From an uncultured Candidatus Saccharibacteria bacterium (GTDB lineage: Bacteria > Patescibacteriota > Minisyncoccia > UBA6257 > GWB1-50-10), in assembly GCA_964366055.1 (NCBI GenBank), contig CAYISE010000004.1, positions 1 through 39,048 of the forward strand: DNA of 39,048 nucleotides, read 5' to 3'. Below, one piece after another: positions 2,749 through 31,601 of this stretch. Every line of letters begins with the position of its first letter. The stretch's first letter is position 1. Made by a program: the position numbers and the translations under genes. The notes under the pieces are model-generated. The model saw only the letters and a program-made list of their open reading frames with translations. It was not told where the DNA came from and ran no database searches.

Positions 2749-2840
2749 AAAGCCCGACACCACGAGGTCTTGCGACCCTATAGAGGTTTCCCCCTATAAC
2801 GTAAGCCACGCCGTGAATGCCGGGTTTTCTATGGCTTACG
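2749..2840 (-). ncRNA. Cloverleaf-like structured RNA, C4/CI antisense-like architecture
   Basis: Minus strand: closing stem CCCGGCAUUCACG/CGUGGUGUCGGG with G-U pairs, GAAA and GCAA tetraloop hairpins, internal GUGGCUUACG complementary to adjacent CGUAAGCCAU. Confidence 0.55.
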
Positions 2841-2948
2841 ATTTTTGCCATGCCCATTACTGGGTTTAGGCCTTATTCAGTTGTAATTTTAGGGTAGCAC
2901 ACTGGTCAAATTAAAACAATCGGAAACTTGATTAGTGGCTTGAAATAA

Positions 2949-3779
2949 GGTAGAATTGCAGAAGGAGGATTTATTGATGGTAAATTTCATCAATCACTTA
3001 TAGATGCAGGTTTGTTTAATAAGGTGCAAGGACTTCTTACCGCCCGCAATGTTAGTGTCCATTATATTGATAAAGATTTCTTCACTTACCGAGGATTACT
3101 CCGATGTTCATGTGGTCGTGGGTATTCGCCCTATATTCAAAAGGGTATCACTTACTACCGGACACGCTGTAAGGATGGGTGCCATAATCCTGACAAAAAT
3201 TTAACCGAAACAGATATCCATAAATTAGTTCAGGCAACTCTTGCCACCATAAACTTTACAGACGATGAACTCGTGGAACTTGAGGAGAAAGCTAAAAAAG
3301 ATCTCGGCACTATCTCTGAATCTAGAATCAAAGAATTAGACGACCTCCATTCCCAAAGAAAAAAGGTTTTTGAGGATCTAGACTATCTCATGAACAATAA
3401 ATTAACTCTCCTACGGACCAACACAATGACTATGGTGGATATTAAAAGTGAAGAGAATCGGTTTAACGAACGATTGGCTGAGATAGACGGCAAGATAAAA
3501 ATTTACGCTGAATCAGCGCGAGATTTGCTAAAATATATCGTTACCTTTTCCGAACTCGTTAAAAACGCCAGTTTGTACTACGAACACGCTTTAGACACAG
3601 AAAAACGAGATCTAGTGACCCAAGTGTTTTCCGAACTCGTTTTTGAAGACCGAAAGCTTGTAAAATATAGGGCAAAAGATGGTTTCGACGCCCTTCTTAA
3701 TCGAAGTTGGGTATCTGGCTCCGCAGGTAGGACTCGAACCTACAACCATCTCCTTAACAGGGAGCCGCTCTACCATTGA
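2949..3779 (+). pseudogene. C-terminal remnant of a large serine recombinase (end of recombinase domain, Zn ribbon, coiled coil)
   Basis: After TAA 2946-2948 reads GRIAEGGFIDGKFHQSLIDAGLFNKVQGLL, then LRCSCG...YYRTRCKDGC; no catalytic N-terminal domain; reads into the tRNA. Confidence 0.8.
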
Positions 3780-3790
3780 GCTACCGAGGA
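3716..3790 (-). tRNA. tRNA-Asn (GTT), CCA encoded, imperfect acceptor stem
   Basis: TCCTCGG-TA-GCTC AATGGTA GAGC-G-GCTCC CT GTT AA GGAGA-TGGTT-GTAGG TTCGAGT CCTAC-CTGCGGA-GCCA. Confidence 0.95.
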
Positions 3791-4236: not shown

Positions 4237-4309
4237 CCCCCTATAGCTCAGTTGGTAGAGCACCTGCCTTTTAAGCAGTGGGTCCCAGGTTCGAATCCTG
4301 GTGGGGGGA
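4237..4309 (+). tRNA. tRNA-Lys (TTT), CCA not encoded
   Basis: CCCCCTA-TA-GCTC AGTTGGTA GAGC-A-CCTGC CT TTT AA GCAGT-GGGTC-CCAGG TTCGAAT CCTGG-TGGGGGG-A. Confidence 0.95.
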
Positions 4310-4333
4310 CAATGGAGAGTTCCTATCCGTTTT

Positions 4334-7695: not shown

Positions 7696-7702
7696 ATTTT
7701 AT

Positions 7703-7726
7703 GGTGGTCTAATCAATTAGGCCACC
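7703..7726. repeat. 24-bp GGTG...CACC palindrome
   Basis: GGTGGTCTAATCAATTAGGCCACC; relatives at 14809, 30649 and 31577. Confidence 0.8.
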
Positions 7727-7733
7727 TCTTATT

Positions 7734-8378
7734 ATGTCTAGTGAAGAGAAATCAAAAAAACTTTCGGCGCTGAAGGAAAAAATGGTGGCCGATGAAAATC
7801 TGCCGCTTCGGGAGGCGAATTTCGTTTTTGGCGAGGGAAGCGCCGAAAGCGAGGTGATGTTTATCGGGGAAGCGCCGGGTTTTTTTGAAGATAAACTGCA
7901 AAGGCCGTTCGTGGGCCGCGCCGGAAAACTTTTGGGCAGATTATTGGCTGATATCGGCTGGCGGCGCGAGAACGTCTACATTTCCAACATTGTGAAACGC
8001 CGTCCGCCGGGGAATCGCGACCCCTTGCCGGAAGAACTTGAAGCGTATCGGCCGTATCTCACCGAAGAAATAGGGATTCTAAACCCGAAGATAATCGCGC
8101 CCTTGGGCCGATACTCAATGAATTACATTCTGCCGAACGCCAAAATCTCTGACGCTCACGGCAAGGTTTTTTGGTGGGGTGAACGACTCGTCATTCCTTT
8201 ATATCATCCTGCCGCCGCCTTGCGTTCCACGGGCGTTTTGCAGGAGTTGGAAAAAGATTTTCAAAAACTTAAAATCCTTCCTGGAAAATATGAAACATTT
8301 TTAGCCGAGCGCCGGGAAAAACAGAGAAATAACCCCATGGTCTCTCAAGATAAAAAAGAGCAGGAGAAATTGTTGTAA
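7734..8378 (+). CDS. Uracil-DNA glycosylase, family 4
   Basis: GEAPG, PFVGRAG, RPPGNRDP, YHPAA. Confidence 0.93.
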   Translation: MSSEEKSKKLSALKEKMVADENLPLREANFVFGEGSAESEVMFIGEAPGFFEDKLQRPFVGRAGKLLGRLLADIGWRRENVYISNIVKRRPPGNRDPLPEELEAYRPYLTEEIGILNPKIIAPLGRYSMNYILPNAKISDAHGKVFWWGERLVIPLYHPAAALRSTGVLQELEKDFQKLKILPGKYETFLAERREKQRNNPMVSQDKKEQEKLL

Positions 8379-10318
8379 TGAATATTGAAAAACTTCTGAA
8401 CCCCAGTCAGTGGGAGGCGGTGAAGACGATTGAGGGGCCGGTCCTGGTGATAGCGGGGCCGGGCTCCGGGAAAACGCGGGTGATTGAATACCGCGTTTTG
8501 CATCTTATGGAAAACGGCGTGAGGCCGGAGGCTATTTTGCTTCTGACCTTCACGCGGCGGGCGGCGGCCGAGATGCTGAACCGCGCCGCCGAACACGACC
8601 CGCGCGCGCGGAAAGTGGAGGGCGGCACATTTCACTCCTTCGCTTATAAATTATTAAAACAATACGGCGCTAATCTAGGTTTACCGAAGAATCTTTTGAT
8701 TTTGGACGAGGACGACGCCCAGGAGGCGCTCGGGAAAATAGCGTCAAGAATCAATCTCACCGATGAGAATAAAAAATTTCCCCAAAAAAACACGCTCCGG
8801 AACATCATCAGCGGCGCGCTCAACAAAAATCTCTCCATAGAAGAGATATTGGAAAGGGGATATGAGCACTTGAGCCGATTTGCCGAAGATATAGAAAAAA
8901 TCAAGGAAAATTATGTCGCCTATAAAAGAGAGTCCGGCTATCTGGATTATGACGACCTTTTATTTTATTCAAGAGAACTCTTAAAAGATGAAAAAATCAG
9001 AGAGGTTCTTTCTCAAAAATATCGTTTTGTGATGGTGGACGAATACCAGGACACAAACAAACTTCAGGGCGATATCACCTATCTGCTTTCCGCCGGGCAT
9101 AAAAATGTGATGGTGGTGGGAGATGACGCTCAAAGCATCTACGGTTTTCGCGGGGCGCGCCACGAAAATATTATGAGTTTCCCGGAGCAGTTTGAGAATT
9201 GCAAAATCGTGAAATTGGAGAGCAACTACCGGAGCACGCAGGCGATTTTGGATTTGAGCAATGCCGTTCTGGAAAATATGGAAAATAAATTCAAAAAGAC
9301 CCTGCTGGCGGCTCGGGAGAGCGCCGGAGAAAAACCGAACATTATTTATTTTGGCGATGCCGAAGAAGAAGCGGCCTGGGTGAAGGAGAAAATCCATGAA
9401 TTTATTTTGAACGGCGCGCCGCCCGCGCGTCAGGCGGTGCTTTTTCGCTCCTCTTATGTCTCCATCCCGCTTCAGGCGGAACTGGCCCGCGCCGGACTGC
9501 CCTTCAAGATTTTCGGCGGATTGAAATTTTACGAAACCGCTCACGTAAAAGATGTGCTCGCGCATTTGAAAGTGCTCGCGAATTTCAAGGATGAATTGAG
9601 CTGGAGCCGGATTCTCACCTTACTGCCGGGTGTCGGCGGGAAAACCGCCGAGACGATTGCTTCTCAAATCCGCCGGGCGGGGGATTTGAACTCCGCCCTT
9701 AATGTTTTAGTTCGGTACGCGGAGGGCTATAAATATTCGCCGCATCTCGCGGAGTTGAAACAAACTCTCGCGAGGGCCGCCGTCCAAAATCTTTCCGTCG
9801 GCGGGAAATTCGGTCTCATCGCGGATTATTATCTTCCGATTCTGAAAGAAAAATTCGACGAATGGCCGAATCGGCTGAACGACTTGGAAGCGTTACGGCC
9901 AATCACCTTGAGTTACACGGACTTGAACGACCTGCTCGCCGATTTGGTGATTGAAATTCCCGAAGACAGACAACAGAATGAAAAACTACTCACCCTTTCC
10001 ACCATTCACTCGGCCAAGGGCTTGGAATGGGATGTGGTTTATCTTTTGGGCGTGATGGAGGGGGTGTTGCCGTCAAAAATAGCTTTAAAGTCGCGAGAAG
10101 AAATAGAAGAAGAGCGCCGGCTTTTCTATGTGGCGATTACTCGCGCCCGGAATAAGCTTTTTTTGCTTTTTCATCTGGCGGGAAATATGGGTCCGATGTC
10201 ATTTAATCGGCTTTCCAGATTTTTGGATGACCCGAGCGTGCTTTTGAGTGTGGAACACAAGGACTTATCAAATGGTTCAAATGATGGGATTTATGACGAG
10301 GAATCAGTGGAATATTAG
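8378..10318 (+). CDS. UvrD/PcrA-family ATP-dependent DNA helicase
   Basis: AGPGSGKT, VDEYQD, GDDAQSIYGFRGA, NYRS, TIHSAKGLEW, EERRLFYVAITRA. Confidence 0.95.
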   Translation: MNIEKLLNPSQWEAVKTIEGPVLVIAGPGSGKTRVIEYRVLHLMENGVRPEAILLLTFTRRAAAEMLNRAAEHDPRARKVEGGTFHSFAYKLLKQYGANLGLPKNLLILDEDDAQEALGKIASRINLTDENKKFPQKNTLRNIISGALNKNLSIEEILERGYEHLSRFAEDIEKIKENYVAYKRESGYLDYDDLLFYSRELLKDEKIREVLSQKYRFVMVDEYQDTNKLQGDITYLLSAGHKNVMVVGDDAQSIYGFRGARHENIMSFPEQFENCKIVKLESNYRSTQAILDLSNAVLENMENKFKKTLLAARESAGEKPNIIYFGDAEEEAAWVKEKIHEFILNGAPPARQAVLFRSSYVSIPLQAELARAGLPFKIFGGLKFYETAHVKDVLAHLKVLANFKDELSWSRILTLLPGVGGKTAETIASQIRRAGDLNSALNVLVRYAEGYKYSPHLAELKQTLARAAVQNLSVGGKFGLIADYYLPILKEKFDEWPNRLNDLEALRPITLSYTDLNDLLADLVIEIPEDRQQNEKLLTLSTIHSAKGLEWDVVYLLGVMEGVLPSKIALKSREEIEEERRLFYVAITRARNKLFLLFHLAGNMGPMSFNRLSRFLDDPSVLLSVEHKDLSNGSNDGIYDEESVEY

Positions 10319-10324
10319 GTTGTC

Positions 10325-10502
10325 GCCCCGGAAGCAAAGGTTTCTCGGAACCGGCCTCGATTTTCTCCAGCGGAAAATCGGGCCTGCGCTCTCGGCGAAA
10401 AACTTTTGCTTTGCAAAAGACCAAGCCCCCACGCCTACGCGTAGGTGTGGGGGCAAGCTTTTTCGCCTCCGAGAGCTTCCTTGAAACCCTTGCTTCCGGG
10501 GC
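10325..10502 (-). repeat. Structured repeat family, copy A, carrying a nested 32-bp palindrome insertion
   Basis: Long closing stem; (+) TCCAGCG loop hairpin; CTCTCGG...ACCAAGC...CCTCCGAGAG arm. Confidence 0.85.
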
Positions 10503-13502: not shown

Positions 13503-13643
13503 GCCCTGCCACAACGCTATTCAGGCACCGGCGGTTCGTTTGCTCCAGCGGCAAACGACCGCCTACACTCTCGGTTCAAAAACCCTTCGAGTACCGATCT
13601 TTTGAACCTCCGAGAGTTGCCTGAACAGCGCTACGGCAGGGCA
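13503..13643 (-). repeat. Structured repeat family, copy B
   Basis: 25-bp closing stem whose four + strand mismatches are all A-C (G-U on minus); TCCAGCG loop; CTCTCGG/CCTCCGAGAG arm. Confidence 0.85.
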
Positions 13644-14706: not shown

Positions 14707-14836
14707 ACTAGAGAATAAGAGTTTTTTGGCGCTAGAGATTTTTCACCGGTATTATGTATAATACCGATATATTTTTTCCGAGTATTCTTTGAAAGTATTT
14801 TATTTCCAGGTGGTATAATCAATTATACCACCTATA

Positions 14837-20355: not shown

Positions 20356-20630
20356 ATTCTCCCGCAGTGTCTTTCGGAACCGCGGTTCGCTTGCTCCTGC
20401 GGCAAGCGCCCGCTGCGCTCTCGGAGCGGCAAATCCTTACGGATTTTTGAATTCCGAAACAGAAGATTTTAACCCCGCTTCGCTCTGCTTCCAGCGGCAG
20501 AGTTCACTGCTGAAAAGGGTTTTTGCCGCAAACCCTTTTCAGAGGTAAAAATCTTCTGTTTTGTAATTCAAAGTACGGATGCCAAGCTTGCCGCTCCTCC
20601 GAGAGCTTCCTCAAAACACCGCGGCAGAAT
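20356..20630 (-). repeat. Structured repeat family, copy C, interrupted by a nested element
   Basis: Closing stem with TC/TC internal loop; TCCTGCG loop hairpin; CTCTCGG...GCCAAGC...CCTCCGAGAG arm. Confidence 0.85.
20445..20573. mobile_element. Nested 129-bp MITE-like element with terminal inverted repeats and 7-bp direct-repeat flanks
   Basis: TACGGAT at 20438-20444 and 20574-20580; ~30-bp imperfect TIRs; internal TCCAGCG loop. Confidence 0.7.
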
Positions 20631-21744: not shown

Positions 21745-21879
21745 TCCACTCCCATTTCCTAAAGCACCGGATGTCGCGTTGCTCCAGCGGCAACGCGCAT
21801 CGTTACGCTCTCGGCGAAAAAATCCTTCGGATACCAAGCTTTTTCGCCTCCGAGAGTTGCTTTAGGAAACAGGAGCGGA
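21745..21879 (-). repeat. Structured repeat family, copy D (minimal, uninterrupted)
   Basis: 22-bp closing stem with three A-C (minus G-U) pairs; TCCAGCG loop; ATCCTTCGGAT-ACCAAGC inner loop. Confidence 0.85.
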
Positions 21880-27978: not shown

Positions 27979-29184
27979 ATGAAGAACAAAGTTTTTGTGG
28001 GTTTGTCCGGTGGGGTGGACTCTTCCGTCGCGGCTTACCTTCTTCAAAAGCAGGGTTATAACGTAACCGGCGTTTTTATCCGTTCTTATAATATTGATGG
28101 ATGCGCCGAGCGGGACGCGGAAGACGCCCGGCGGGTGGCGGCGCATTTGGGCATTCCGTTTTACGTTTTTGATTTTGAAAAAGAATACAAGGAGAAGGTG
28201 GTGGAATATATGGTGGACGGATACCGCGCCGGCCTCACACCCAATCCCGATGTAATGTGCAACAGAGAGATAAAGTTCGGTTTGTTTTTGGAGAAAGCGC
28301 TGGAGATGGGGGCGGATTATATCGCCACTGGTCATTATGTTCGTTTGACAGAGAAAGAAAATGTGTTTTCCTCAACCCGCTTCGCTCGTCCAGCGACTCG
28401 CTCGCTTGTCCTCGCCGAGCAACCGTCGAATCGCGGAACGACGGACCATGCTCGCTCGGCTGCGGGGGTTTCGGAGAAACATATTTTCTCTCTCCTTGAA
28501 GCAAAAGATAAGAATAAAGACCAGTCCTATTTCCTCTGGACGCTCGCGCAGGAACAATTGAGACACTGCCTTTTTCCGATAGGCGATTATGTAAAGCCCG
28601 AGGTGCGGGAGATCGCGAGAAAAGCGGGATTGCCGACGGCGGAGAAAAAGGACTCGCAGGGGATTTGCTTTTTGGGCCGGGTCCCGCTTGGCGATTTTCT
28701 GAAGGAATATATCAAGCCGAAAAACGGTCCGATTGTGACAACGAATGGCGAGAAAGTAGGAGAGCACGAAGGAATCTTTTTTTACACCGTTGGTCAGAGA
28801 CACGGTATTGGCGTGGGTGGCGGCGAGCCGTATTACATAGCCGAAAAAAATCCAAAGACCAATACGCTCGTGGTCGCTCAAGGAAACGATAATCCGGCAT
28901 TGTTCAAAAAAGAGATTGAAATTGCGGATATTCATTTCATCAATTCGGAACATTCCGACATTCCGTGGAATGTCGGAATGTCCGCGATGGCTCGGGTGAG
29001 GTATAGACAGCCGCTTGCCCCCGCAACGCTTTGCCGACTACCAGCCGCCAATTATAAACTCGTCTTCAAAAAGCCAGTAAAATTTATCGCATCCGGCCAA
29101 TCCGCCGTCTTTTACGAAACCGGCTGGCTCGCCGGTCTCCGCGGCCGCGCCTTGCTCGGCGGTGGTATAATAGTGAAGAATTGA
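27979..29184 (+). CDS. mnmA: tRNA-specific 2-thiouridylase MnmA with in-frame repeat insertions
   Basis: SGGVDS, TPNPDVMCN, ATGHY, KDQSYFL, DSQGICF, YTVGQR, RYRQ, GQSAVFY. Confidence 0.96.
   Translation: MKNKVFVGLSGGVDSSVAAYLLQKQGYNVTGVFIRSYNIDGCAERDAEDARRVAAHLGIPFYVFDFEKEYKEKVVEYMVDGYRAGLTPNPDVMCNREIKFGLFLEKALEMGADYIATGHYVRLTEKENVFSSTRFARPATRSLVLAEQPSNRGTTDHARSAAGVSEKHIFSLLEAKDKNKDQSYFLWTLAQEQLRHCLFPIGDYVKPEVREIARKAGLPTAEKKDSQGICFLGRVPLGDFLKEYIKPKNGPIVTTNGEKVGEHEGIFFYTVGQRHGIGVGGGEPYYIAEKNPKTNTLVVAQGNDNPALFKKEIEIADIHFINSEHSDIPWNVGMSAMARVRYRQPLAPATLCRLPAANYKLVFKKPVKFIASGQSAVFYETGWLAGLRGRALLGGGIIVKN
28351..28494. repeat. 144-bp structured element inserted in frame in mnmA
   Basis: ~26-bp closing stem with TC/TC loop; TCCAGCG and ACCATGC motifs; exactly 48 codons. 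Confidence 0.8.
28946..28984. repeat. Palindrome inside the mnmA coding sequence
   Basis: ACATTCCGACATTCC-GT-GGAATGTCGGAATGT, perfect 15-bp arms. Confidence 0.8.
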
Positions 29185-31566: not shown

Positions 31567-31575
31567 GCGAAAATT

Positions 31576-31601
31576 GGGTGGTATAATCAATTATACCACC
31601 C
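31576..31601. repeat. GGTG...CACC palindrome
   Basis: 24-bp core GGTGGTATAATCAATTATACCACC identical to 14809-14832. Confidence 0.85.

What the first reader, a model, noticed from the sequence alone, without database searches (positions are those of the whole stretch)
28351..28494. Structured element inserted in frame in the tRNA thiouridylase MnmA
A 144-bp (48-codon) hairpin-closed element sits between GHYVRLT and LEAKDKNKDQ, where MnmA normally has a short loop. It shares TCCAGCG, ACCAWGC and the TC/TC loop with the intergenic family. This parallels Rickettsia palindromic elements that add peptide segments to proteins. Removal at the RNA level is an untested alternative.
Basis: partly seen in the sequence, partly recalled or inferred. 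Interest (0 to 1): 0.78.

Follow-up and report, generated by a model that had tools for sequence, protein, structure and literature searches.

The report
Palindromic repeat translated inside MnmA
A small, hairpin-forming repeat element has landed in frame inside the tRNA-modifying enzyme gene mnmA of a tiny groundwater bacterium, where it is probably translated as a floppy 40-residue loop; related bacteria carry similar elements at the same spot.

Summary
mnmA (27979-29184, +) carries extra, strongly hairpin-forming DNA at 28351-28494. Two same-genus orthologues lack it. Their empty site is a 10+10-nt palindrome, so the outer ~15 nt on each side are native codons and about 120 nt (40 codons; conserved core 28366-28479) were inserted at the palindrome centre.

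The core belongs to a dispersed family with a conserved three-way-junction fold. There are about 30 copies in this 572-kb Patescibacteria genome. Compensatory changes occur in 15 of 32 and 21 of 27 predicted pairs.

Six close copies (X subtype) were found. Four sit in frame in housekeeping genes: mnmA, parB twice, and a cysteine desulfurase. In 30 mnmA orthologues the frame is continuous in all 30, and 18 carry an insert at this same site. Five of those are this family, read in two different codon phases. This argues for read-through translation and against RNA removal.

AlphaFold places the insert as a low-confidence loop at the tip of a beta-hairpin. At three sites a relative shows only a hairpin where this family sits, which suggests insertion into hairpin loops. 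No mobilising enzyme was identified and no RNA data exist.

Verdict: a Rickettsia-palindromic-element-like selfish element, a new variant, and I found no published description of it.

The parts
27979..29184 (+). mnmA (tRNA 2-thiouridine(34) synthase), 401 aa, the host gene, uninterrupted frame
   Evidence: NCBIfam NF001138 at 407 bits against a cut-off of 284. PDB 2der_A at E 1.9e-89, matched in two stretches.
28351..28365 (+). Left arm of the closing stem. These are native codons (E-K-E-N-V), homologous to the left half of the palindrome in the empty alleles.
   Evidence: DNA and protein alignment with L011 and L012. Part of beta-strand 121-127 in the model.
28366..28479 (+). Conserved core of the inserted element (X subtype), 114 nt. 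The gain relative to empty alleles is 120 nt, and the exact junctions are ambiguous by a few nt.
   Evidence: Model R1 match at 129 bits. Independent model R2 at 29.9 bits, E 8e-6. 84-86% identical copies in G002 and G004.
28389..28395 (+). TCCAGCG motif, which is the invariant loop of hairpin P2 in the wider family. In this copy the P2 stem is degenerate.
   Evidence: Sequence. Alignments A1 and A3. It is the most frequent 7-nt hairpin loop in the genome, 11 cases with a stem of 6 or more.
28414..28460 (+). Helix P3 (28414-28420 pairs with 28454-28460). It encloses the inner hairpin (28423-28428 with 28439-28444) and the unpaired ACCATGC (28445-28451).
   Evidence: RNAalifold on A1. The P3 and inner-hairpin pairs are kept through changes on both sides in G004 and G038 copies.
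28480..28494 (+). Right arm of the closing stem. These are native codons (H-I-F-S-L), homologous to the right half of the palindrome in the empty alleles.
   Evidence: Part of beta-strand 168-174.
10341..10486 (+). Intergenic copy of the same superfamily, 23 nt after the stop of the upstream gene. It carries an extra internal hairpin.
   Evidence: nhmmer E 6.7e-21. Sequence. Absent, arms included, from the orthologous spacer of G004.
13521..13624 (+). Intergenic copy of the superfamily
   Evidence: nhmmer E 6.5e-15. Sequence.
20368..20618 (+). Intergenic copy of the superfamily. It is itself interrupted at 20446-20572 by a related element with about 30-nt AT-rich terminal inverted repeats, flanked by the direct repeat TACGGAT.
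   Evidence: (I3).
21756..21870 (+). Intergenic copy of the superfamily, 20 nt after the upstream stop codon. Best match to the family profile.
   Evidence: nhmmer E 1.2e-26. Sequence.

Best explanation
The segment is a non-autonomous, structured palindromic repeat element. It belongs to a family with about 30 copies in this 572-kb Patescibacteria genome.

It was inserted at the DNA level into the centre of a short palindrome that already existed in mnmA. That palindrome encodes the two antiparallel strands of a surface beta-hairpin. The insert is 120 nt long and free of stop codons, so the ribosome reads through it. MnmA is made with about 40 extra, probably disordered residues at the hairpin tip, and all catalytic motifs are intact. 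The element is selfish or neutral, and the peptide has no function of its own.

Shown here: the insertion is derived; it belongs to the family; the fold is conserved; it is in frame; and in three cases the core sits between arms that form a plain hairpin in a relative.

Inferred: translation; tolerance by the enzyme; and hairpin loops as the preferred target, which would explain why each copy is closed by its own locus-specific stem and why most copies lie just after stop codons, where terminators are.

Unknown: the enzyme that moves it.
For: (1) The insertion is derived. G004 and G003 have the site empty, with the usual loop length of 19 residues. In L011 the empty site is a perfect 10+10-nt palindrome with a 2-nt spacer.

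(2) The element is dispersed. 84-86% identical copies lie at other loci in G002 and G004. Model R1 gives 32 matches in 16 of 96 genomes of the family. nhmmer gives 30 merged matches in the own genome, 23 of them full length.

(3) The fold is conserved. 15 of 32 pairs (A1, 5 copies) and 21 of 27 pairs (A3, 16 copies) are kept through changes on both sides.

(4) Selection keeps the frame, not the peptide. All 30 of 30 mnmA orthologues have one open frame across the site, and 18 of 30 carry inserts. Five of these match R2 (L001, L003, L004, L006, L007). They are read in two codon phases: TCC-AGC in L003 and L007, CCA-GCG in L001, L004 and L006. The parB copies (G000, G002) and the G090 cysteine-desulfurase copy are in frame in the reverse orientation. 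The internally deleted parB copy of G000 is still in frame.

(5) AlphaFold2 gives mean pLDDT 88.7. Residues 131-165 score below 50, between strands 121-127 and 168-174.

(6) The core sits in hairpin loops. After the clpP-like gene, G000:C5 has a plain terminator hairpin, and G004:C8 has the X core inside the homologous stem. In the cysteine desulfurase, G003 has an 8-bp hairpin whose arms are homologous to those closing the own-genome copy.

(7) The arms are specific to each copy. Flank-to-flank duplex energy averages -31.8 kcal/mol within a copy, against -16.2 (sd 7.3) between copies. 12 of 23 copies are beyond the 5th percentile of the between-copy values.
Against: There is no RNA or protein evidence. 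No RNA run holds the sequence.

The public contigs laid on the gene break inside the element. None of the listed pieces bridges 28251-28388, so the left junction rests on the assembly that gave the window.

No target-site duplication and no transposase can be tied to the family. The only Y1/IS200-like gene has its own, different flanking hairpins. Its presence tracks the element only weakly: 10 of 16 R1-positive genomes against 35 of 80 R1-negative ones, and relatives are not independent.

Hairpin-loop targeting is not universal. The intergenic copy at 10341-10486 is missing from G004 together with its 26-nt arms. A 151-bp, 98.7% identical duplicate pair (C2 and C5) includes its arms.

Forward frames of intergenic copies are often open anyway (13, 14 and 15 of 21). 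Freedom from stop codons alone is therefore weak evidence. The argument rests mainly on insert length being a multiple of three.

The empty palindromes could be footprints of precise excision rather than targets.
Confidence: 0.78

Rival explanations
1. The element is removed from the mRNA by an intron-like or processing-plus-ligation event, so mature MnmA lacks the peptide. The conserved fold would then be the splicing or processing signal.
For: The fold and two loop motifs are conserved far beyond what a neutral insert needs. The element is always closed by a stem that brings the two flanks together. No RNA data exclude it.
Against: All 18 of 18 insert-bearing mnmA orthologues, both parB copies and both cysteine-desulfurase copies keep the host frame with no stop. 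A removed segment would not need this. There is no match to any Rfam ribozyme or intron family at E up to 1. Most copies are intergenic, where splicing has no purpose.
Confidence: 0.05
2. The family is a host-useful structured RNA or DNA module, for example a 3'-end stabiliser or terminator, a protein-binding site, or a translation pause site. The mnmA copy would be retained because it regulates mnmA, not merely tolerated.
For: Strong covariation and invariant loops. By my reading, about 16 of about 22 intergenic copies lie 8-120 nt downstream of a co-oriented gene. The same hairpin tip of mnmA is occupied in 18 of 30 orthologues.
Against: Occupancy is patchy even within the genus: X type in G000, a different small hairpin in G001 and G002, nothing in G003 and G004. 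Different, unrelated hairpin elements occupy the site in different genera. Copies occur in both orientations inside genes. Close copies at unrelated loci indicate transposition.
Confidence: 0.12
3. It is an old lineage-specific protein loop whose DNA symmetry is incidental.
For: The loop region is variable in length across MnmA orthologues.
Against: Empty alleles exist in the same genus. 84-86% identical DNA lies at unrelated loci. The peptide is not conserved, and the phase differs among copies. The fold is significant.
Confidence: 0.02
4. It is an assembly artefact: a repeat copy wrongly joined into mnmA in the metagenome-assembled contig.
For: Public contigs break within the element, and no listed piece bridges the left junction.
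Against: The join is exactly in frame. Both flanks continue the palindrome seen in the empty alleles. Equivalent in-frame copies occur in independently assembled genomes: G002 parB, G090 cysteine desulfurase, and G013, G006, G040 and G024 mnmA.
Confidence: 0.02

Closest known systems
Rickettsia palindromic elements (RPE; Ogata et al. 2000, 2002). I saw only passages about them in PMC10969869 and PMC2229807, not the original papers.
   Same: Both are 100-150-nt palindromic repeats of a reduced-genome bacterium. Both are found in intergenic DNA and fused in frame into conserved housekeeping genes at places compatible with the protein fold, with no transposase of their own. For one RPE-bearing enzyme (gmk), the papers report that it is translated and active.
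   Different: No sequence relationship was tested or is expected. RPEs are described as encoding a conserved peptide. Here the same element is read in at least two phases and in both orientations. This family has a three-way-junction fold with invariant loops and heavy covariation. Each copy is closed by a locus-specific stem that in three cases pre-exists as a hairpin in a relative. The host is a Patescibacterium.
REPIN/RAYT systems and REP sequences. I saw only abstracts in the listing (PMC3116915, PMC3337134, PMC8266576).
   Same: Both are hairpin-forming, non-autonomous repeats, mostly extragenic, that persist in a lineage. A Y1 (HUH) transposase-like gene is present in the genome.
   Different: The Y1 gene here is flanked by its own TTACGA...TCGTAA hairpins, which do not resemble the element. 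The element is not a pair of inverted short REPs. The Y1 gene was not found in 6 of 16 genomes that hold the element.
Elements that target hairpins: IS1397/ISKpn1 in REP loops and class C group II introns after terminators. These are recalled from my own knowledge, not from a call. ISPpu9 in REPs comes from the abstract of PMC8450116.
   Same: Insertion is associated with pre-existing stem-loops such as terminators or palindromes.
   Different: Those are autonomous elements with a transposase or a reverse transcriptase. This is a 114-nt non-coding core, and no partner element was found.
MITEs with in-frame ORF fusions (ERIC, Correia 107-bp form, YPAL), from passages of PMC2229807
   Same: Small size, stem-loop transcripts, and occasional in-frame fusion to host ORFs.
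   Different: No target-site duplication or TA ends were found for the X subtype. The terminal stems are locus-specific rather than family-wide. No parent IS is known.

Membership tests
MnmA (host gene) | Full-length match to the tRNA 2-thiouridine(34) synthase profile above the curated cut-off | tested here: met
   NF001138 at 407.3 bits against a cut-off of 284, in two stretches split by the insert. PDB 2der_A at E 1.9e-89.
Rickettsia palindromic elements (RPE) | 100-150-bp repeat that folds into a long stem-loop | tested here: met
   114-nt core inside a 144-nt hairpin; z -3.0 and -4.0.
Rickettsia palindromic elements (RPE) | Copies fused in frame into conserved protein genes as well as lying in intergenic DNA | tested here: met
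   In frame in mnmA, parB and a cysteine desulfurase of G000, parB of G002, and a cysteine desulfurase of G090. About 20 intergenic copies in G000.
Rickettsia palindromic elements (RPE) | Each family encodes a conserved peptide read in one frame (as stated in PMC10969869) | tested here: not met
   Two codon phases among the five mnmA copies, and reverse orientation in parB and the G090 cysteine desulfurase.
Rickettsia palindromic elements (RPE) | Sequence homology to RPE-1 to RPE-10, and occurrence in Rickettsia | not tested
   No RPE sequence was available from a tool. The host is a Patescibacterium according to earlier notes.
MITE | Family-wide terminal inverted repeats | tested here: inconclusive
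   The inner ends (TTTCC-TCAACCC at the 5' end, GGGTT-TCG-GAGAAA at the 3' end) are conserved among X copies. The outer 10-17 bp of the stem differ at every locus.
MITE | Target-site duplication (direct repeat) at the ends | tested here: not met
   None was seen at the mnmA, clpP-terminator or cysteine-desulfurase sites, where the flanks are inverted, not direct. Only the nested AT-armed relative at 20446-20572 has a 7-nt direct repeat.
MITE | A related autonomous IS with the same ends | tested here: not met
   In G000 there is no match to PF07282 or PF01548. There is one IS200-like gene with unrelated ends, and two DGR-type reverse transcriptases. DDE families were not searched.
REPIN/RAYT | The RAYT gene is flanked by the same REP hairpins that are dispersed in the genome | tested here: not met
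   The flanking hairpins of the Y1 gene (stem TTACGAT, loop TCCCGGC) occur 5 times. 3 of the 5 lie at or within the Y1 gene, and they differ from the element.
Self-splicing introns and known ribozymes | Match to an Rfam intron or ribozyme model | tested here: not met
   cmscan of the whole window at E up to 1 returned only two tRNAs, LOOT and one chance hit.

The most novel reading that the evidence does not exclude
The family is an undescribed kind of mobile structured element that integrates specifically into the apical loops of existing hairpins: terminators, palindromic coding segments and other copies of itself. This would build nested hairpins.

Its conserved three-way junction, with invariant TCCAGCG and ACCAAGC loops, would be the handle for an unknown single-strand-specific enzyme, or would itself be catalytic.

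A DNA palindrome inside a gene tends to encode two antiparallel strands of opposite polarity. In mnmA the palindrome pairs Glu/Lys/Arg codons with Phe/Ser/Leu codons. A loop-targeting rule would therefore deliver inserts to beta-hairpin tips. That would explain how tiny genomes tolerate them in essential enzymes, and why the same tip of MnmA is occupied in 18 of 30 relatives.
Probability: 0.3. Interest if true: 0.8.

Novelty: new variant of a known kind. Interest (0 to 1): 0.62.

Why it matters
In-frame 'protein-coding palindromes' have been treated as a peculiarity of Rickettsia. Finding the same outcome in Patescibacteria suggests it is a general route by which reduced genomes accumulate and tolerate selfish DNA. 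Here it involves a different and much more structured element, and it affects several essential genes (mnmA, parB, a cysteine desulfurase).

There is a practical side. Such inserts lengthen and split profile matches to core proteins of candidate-phyla genomes, and they break short-read assemblies.

The locus-specific closing stems, together with the three empty-site hairpins, give a concrete and testable rule for where the element goes. The covariance models built here could serve for a census across the phylum and for a search for the enzyme that moves the element.

Tried and rejected
RNA evidence: the look-up of sequencing runs listed no RNA holder. Laying four DNA runs gave only contigs that break at the element, plus copies in other contexts. 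This says nothing on polymorphism or expression.

Rfam: there is no family for the element.

Y1/IS200-like gene as mobiliser: rejected as unsupported. Its flanking hairpins are its own, a pattern repeated at homologues in 11 other genomes that I inspected, and co-occurrence with the element is weak.

Reverse transcriptases: two RVT_1 genes score below the cut-off of the group-II RT model. One lies beside an Avd-like gene, and both carry an LGNLTSQ-type motif that I recall as typical of diversity-generating retroelements. Element copies near the C9 gene simply follow neighbouring genes. No link was shown.

Intein: considered and dropped. The insert is 40 residues, and its sequence depends on phase and orientation.

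The Y-type small hairpin found in mnmA of G001 and G002 has no copy in G000 (blastn-short, E up to 0.01).

One R1 match (G090:C1, 24.6 bits) lies in a 677-aa open frame that I took to be an isoleucyl-tRNA synthetase by eye and counted as a chance hit.

Earlier-notes look-up by sequence found nothing.

Searches failed because I gave wrong coordinates. I corrected them.

Literature: three full-text searches listed no paper that links Patescibacteria/CPR with palindromic, MITE, REPIN or in-frame elements. Supplements are closed, so tables of repeats in CPR genome papers could not be checked.

Full report
**Observation.** The window is contig C4 of a 572-kb, 27-contig genome. Earlier notes of this scan call it a groundwater Patescibacterium. 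I did not test that, beyond the fact that the runs holding the sequence are labelled groundwater metagenomes.

mnmA runs from 27979 to 29184 on the + strand. It scores 407 bits against the MnmA equivalog, whose cut-off is 284. It matches that profile, and solved MnmA structures, in two stretches that leave residues ~126-170 unmatched, where the solved proteins have only a few residues. The DNA of 28340-28505 folds far better than shuffles on both strands (z -3.0 and -4.0; 0 of 200 shuffles as good).

**The insertion is derived, and its true limits.** I collected mnmA from 40 relatives. 40 of 41 genomes, counting G000, had a match, and 30 loci were kept. I aligned the 30 open frames.

Two same-genus orthologues, L011 (G004) and L012 (G003), have 19 residues between TGHY and KDQSYFL, the commonest length among the orthologues without an insert. 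The window has 59. At the DNA level the gain is 120 nt. The 15-nt arms at 28351-28365 and 28480-28494 are homologous to codons present in the empty alleles. In L011 those codons form a perfect 10+10-nt palindrome with a 2-nt spacer. So the arms are native, and the core, 28366-28479 by model match, was put between them.

**It is a mobile repeat.** The core recurs at 84-86% identity in G002 (contig C15, in parB) and twice in G004 (C8 and C9, both intergenic). A shorter copy lies in G000 parB.

A covariance model of five such X-type copies (R1; 15 of 32 pairs with compensatory changes) gave 32 matches in 16 of 96 genomes of the taxonomic family.

In the own genome a profile search gave 30 merged matches, 23 of them full length.

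A second model, R2, was built from 16 own-genome copies and did not include the mnmA copy (21 of 27 pairs with compensatory changes). It finds the mnmA segment at E 8e-6. The X type is therefore a diverged member of one superfamily. The shared anatomy is a closing stem, a hairpin with loop TCCAGCG, and a bulged helix enclosing an inner hairpin followed by unpaired ACCAAGC (ACCATGC in the window's X copy).

**Translated, not removed.** All 30 mnmA orthologues keep a single open frame across the site. 18 of them carry 13 to 78 extra residues there.
- Five of the 18 are superfamily copies (L001, L003, L004, L006, L007; R2 at 30-90 bits). They come from five genera, one of them in another taxonomic family.
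- Five carry an unrelated small hairpin (peptide ...SGATPKSY...).
- Eight carry other sequences, most of which fold into hairpins.

The superfamily copies are read in two phases: TCC-AGC in L003 and L007, CCA-GCG in L001, L004 and L006.

X-type copies in parB (G000, G002) and in a NifS/IscS-like cysteine desulfurase of G090 are in frame in the opposite orientation. The own genome's cysteine desulfurase holds a further in-frame superfamily copy. G023 has a superfamily copy at the same loop, while G001-G004 lack it.

The nucleic-acid fold is conserved while the peptide is not, yet insert length always preserves the host frame. That is the signature of a tolerated, translated insert.

One caveat: forward frames of intergenic copies are open in 13-15 of 21 cases anyway. 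Absence of stops is therefore partly intrinsic. No RNA data could be had.

**Where it sits in the protein.** AlphaFold2, with the 29-sequence alignment, gives mean pLDDT 88.7. Residues 131-165 score below 50, between strands 121-127 and 168-174. The native arms thus encode much of the two strands of a beta-hairpin, and the insert is a floppy loop at its tip. The residues that are invariant across the 29 aligned proteins are retained here, since that alignment includes this protein.

**How it gets there.** Every copy is closed by a stem that differs from locus to locus. At three sites a relative shows only the stem:
- mnmA (above);
- the terminator after a clpP-like gene, where G000:C5 has a plain terminator hairpin and G004:C8 has the core inside the homologous stem;
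- the cysteine desulfurase, where G003 has an 8-bp hairpin with arms homologous to those of the G000 copy.

This fits insertion into hairpin loops. It also fits the position of most intergenic copies just after stop codons and the nesting of elements in one another.

Two observations go against a universal rule. The copy at 10341-10486 is absent from G004 together with its arms. A 151-bp pair at 98.7% identity includes its arms. The empty hairpins could also be excision footprints.

No mover was found. The single IS200-like gene has its own, different end hairpins and tracks the element only weakly. PF07282 and PF01548 have no match in G000. The two reverse transcriptases look like those of diversity-generating retroelements and show no link. 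DDE transposase families were not searched.

**Comparison with what is known, and novelty.** The closest known case is the Rickettsia palindromic elements, as described in passages of PMC10969869 and PMC2229807. The outcome is the same: in-frame palindromic repeats in conserved genes of a reduced genome. It differs in having no fixed peptide, a covarying three-way-junction fold, locus-specific stems that pre-exist in relatives, and repeated occupancy of one site across genera.

Three full-text searches listed no paper that describes such elements in Patescibacteria. Supplements could not be read.

I rate it a new variant of a known kind, of moderate to high interest.

Noticed in passing
window 2765-2872 (-): Match to the Rfam LOOT RNA family (RF03000) at 66.2 bits against a gathering score of 46.4. 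It lies near tRNA-Asn (3716-3790, -) and tRNA-Lys (4237-4310, +).
   Followed up: no
window 7696-7727, 14802-14833, 31570-31601: A palindrome of about 24 nt with a GGTGGT...ACCACC core occurs three times in the window. Two copies are identical. Purpose unknown.
   Followed up: no
G000:C1:50927-52312 (-), locus L076: The NifS/IscS-like cysteine desulfurase of this genome carries an in-frame superfamily copy at C1:51853-51974. Orthologues in relatives carry further in-frame inserts at two other loops, near residues 250 and 300, including an AT-rich repeat that encodes ...GFRNS... peptides.
   Followed up: partly
G000:C6:32886-33827 (+), loci L039 and L077: The N-terminal linker of ParB holds an internally deleted X-type copy in reverse orientation. 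G002 has the full-length copy at the same place. G001 has a reverse-oriented superfamily copy there (R2 at 77.6 bits).
   Followed up: partly
G000:C9:884-2213 and C6:48-1028 (loci L139, L138): Two reverse-transcriptase genes of about 320 aa score below the cut-off of the group-II RT model. One lies beside an Avd-like four-helix-bundle gene. They are probably diversity-generating retroelements. Template and variable repeats were not looked for.
   Followed up: partly
G000:C1:37949-38638 (-), locus L137/L140: An IS200-like Y1 transposase gene is flanked on both sides by a TTACGAT-TCCCGGC-ATCGTAA hairpin. Homologues occur in 45 of 96 genomes of the family. The 11 others that I inspected each have their own flanking TTACGA-type hairpins.
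   Followed up: partly
G000: C8:2221, C5:27350, C10:4841, C11:9888, C1:35723, C2:42326, C5:28571: About seven superfamily copies share an additional conserved outer shell (left ...GAGCGGGCA[CG]GGTG..., right ...GAGCGAGCGAGGCCGAGAGC...). This suggests a larger composite element of about 190 nt.
   Followed up: no
loci L002, L008, L010, L013, L021 (mnmA) and L073 (G002, after the orthologue of window gene 8378-10318): A second, unrelated small hairpin element of about 45 nt (peptide ...SGATPKSY... when in frame) occupies the same mnmA site in five genomes and an intergenic site in G002. No copy was found in G000.
   Followed up: partly
G000:C6:32506-32529 (-): A 24-nt match to the TCCAGCG region of the X core lies inside an apparently non-coding, structured stretch upstream of parB. 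It was not identified.
   Followed up: no
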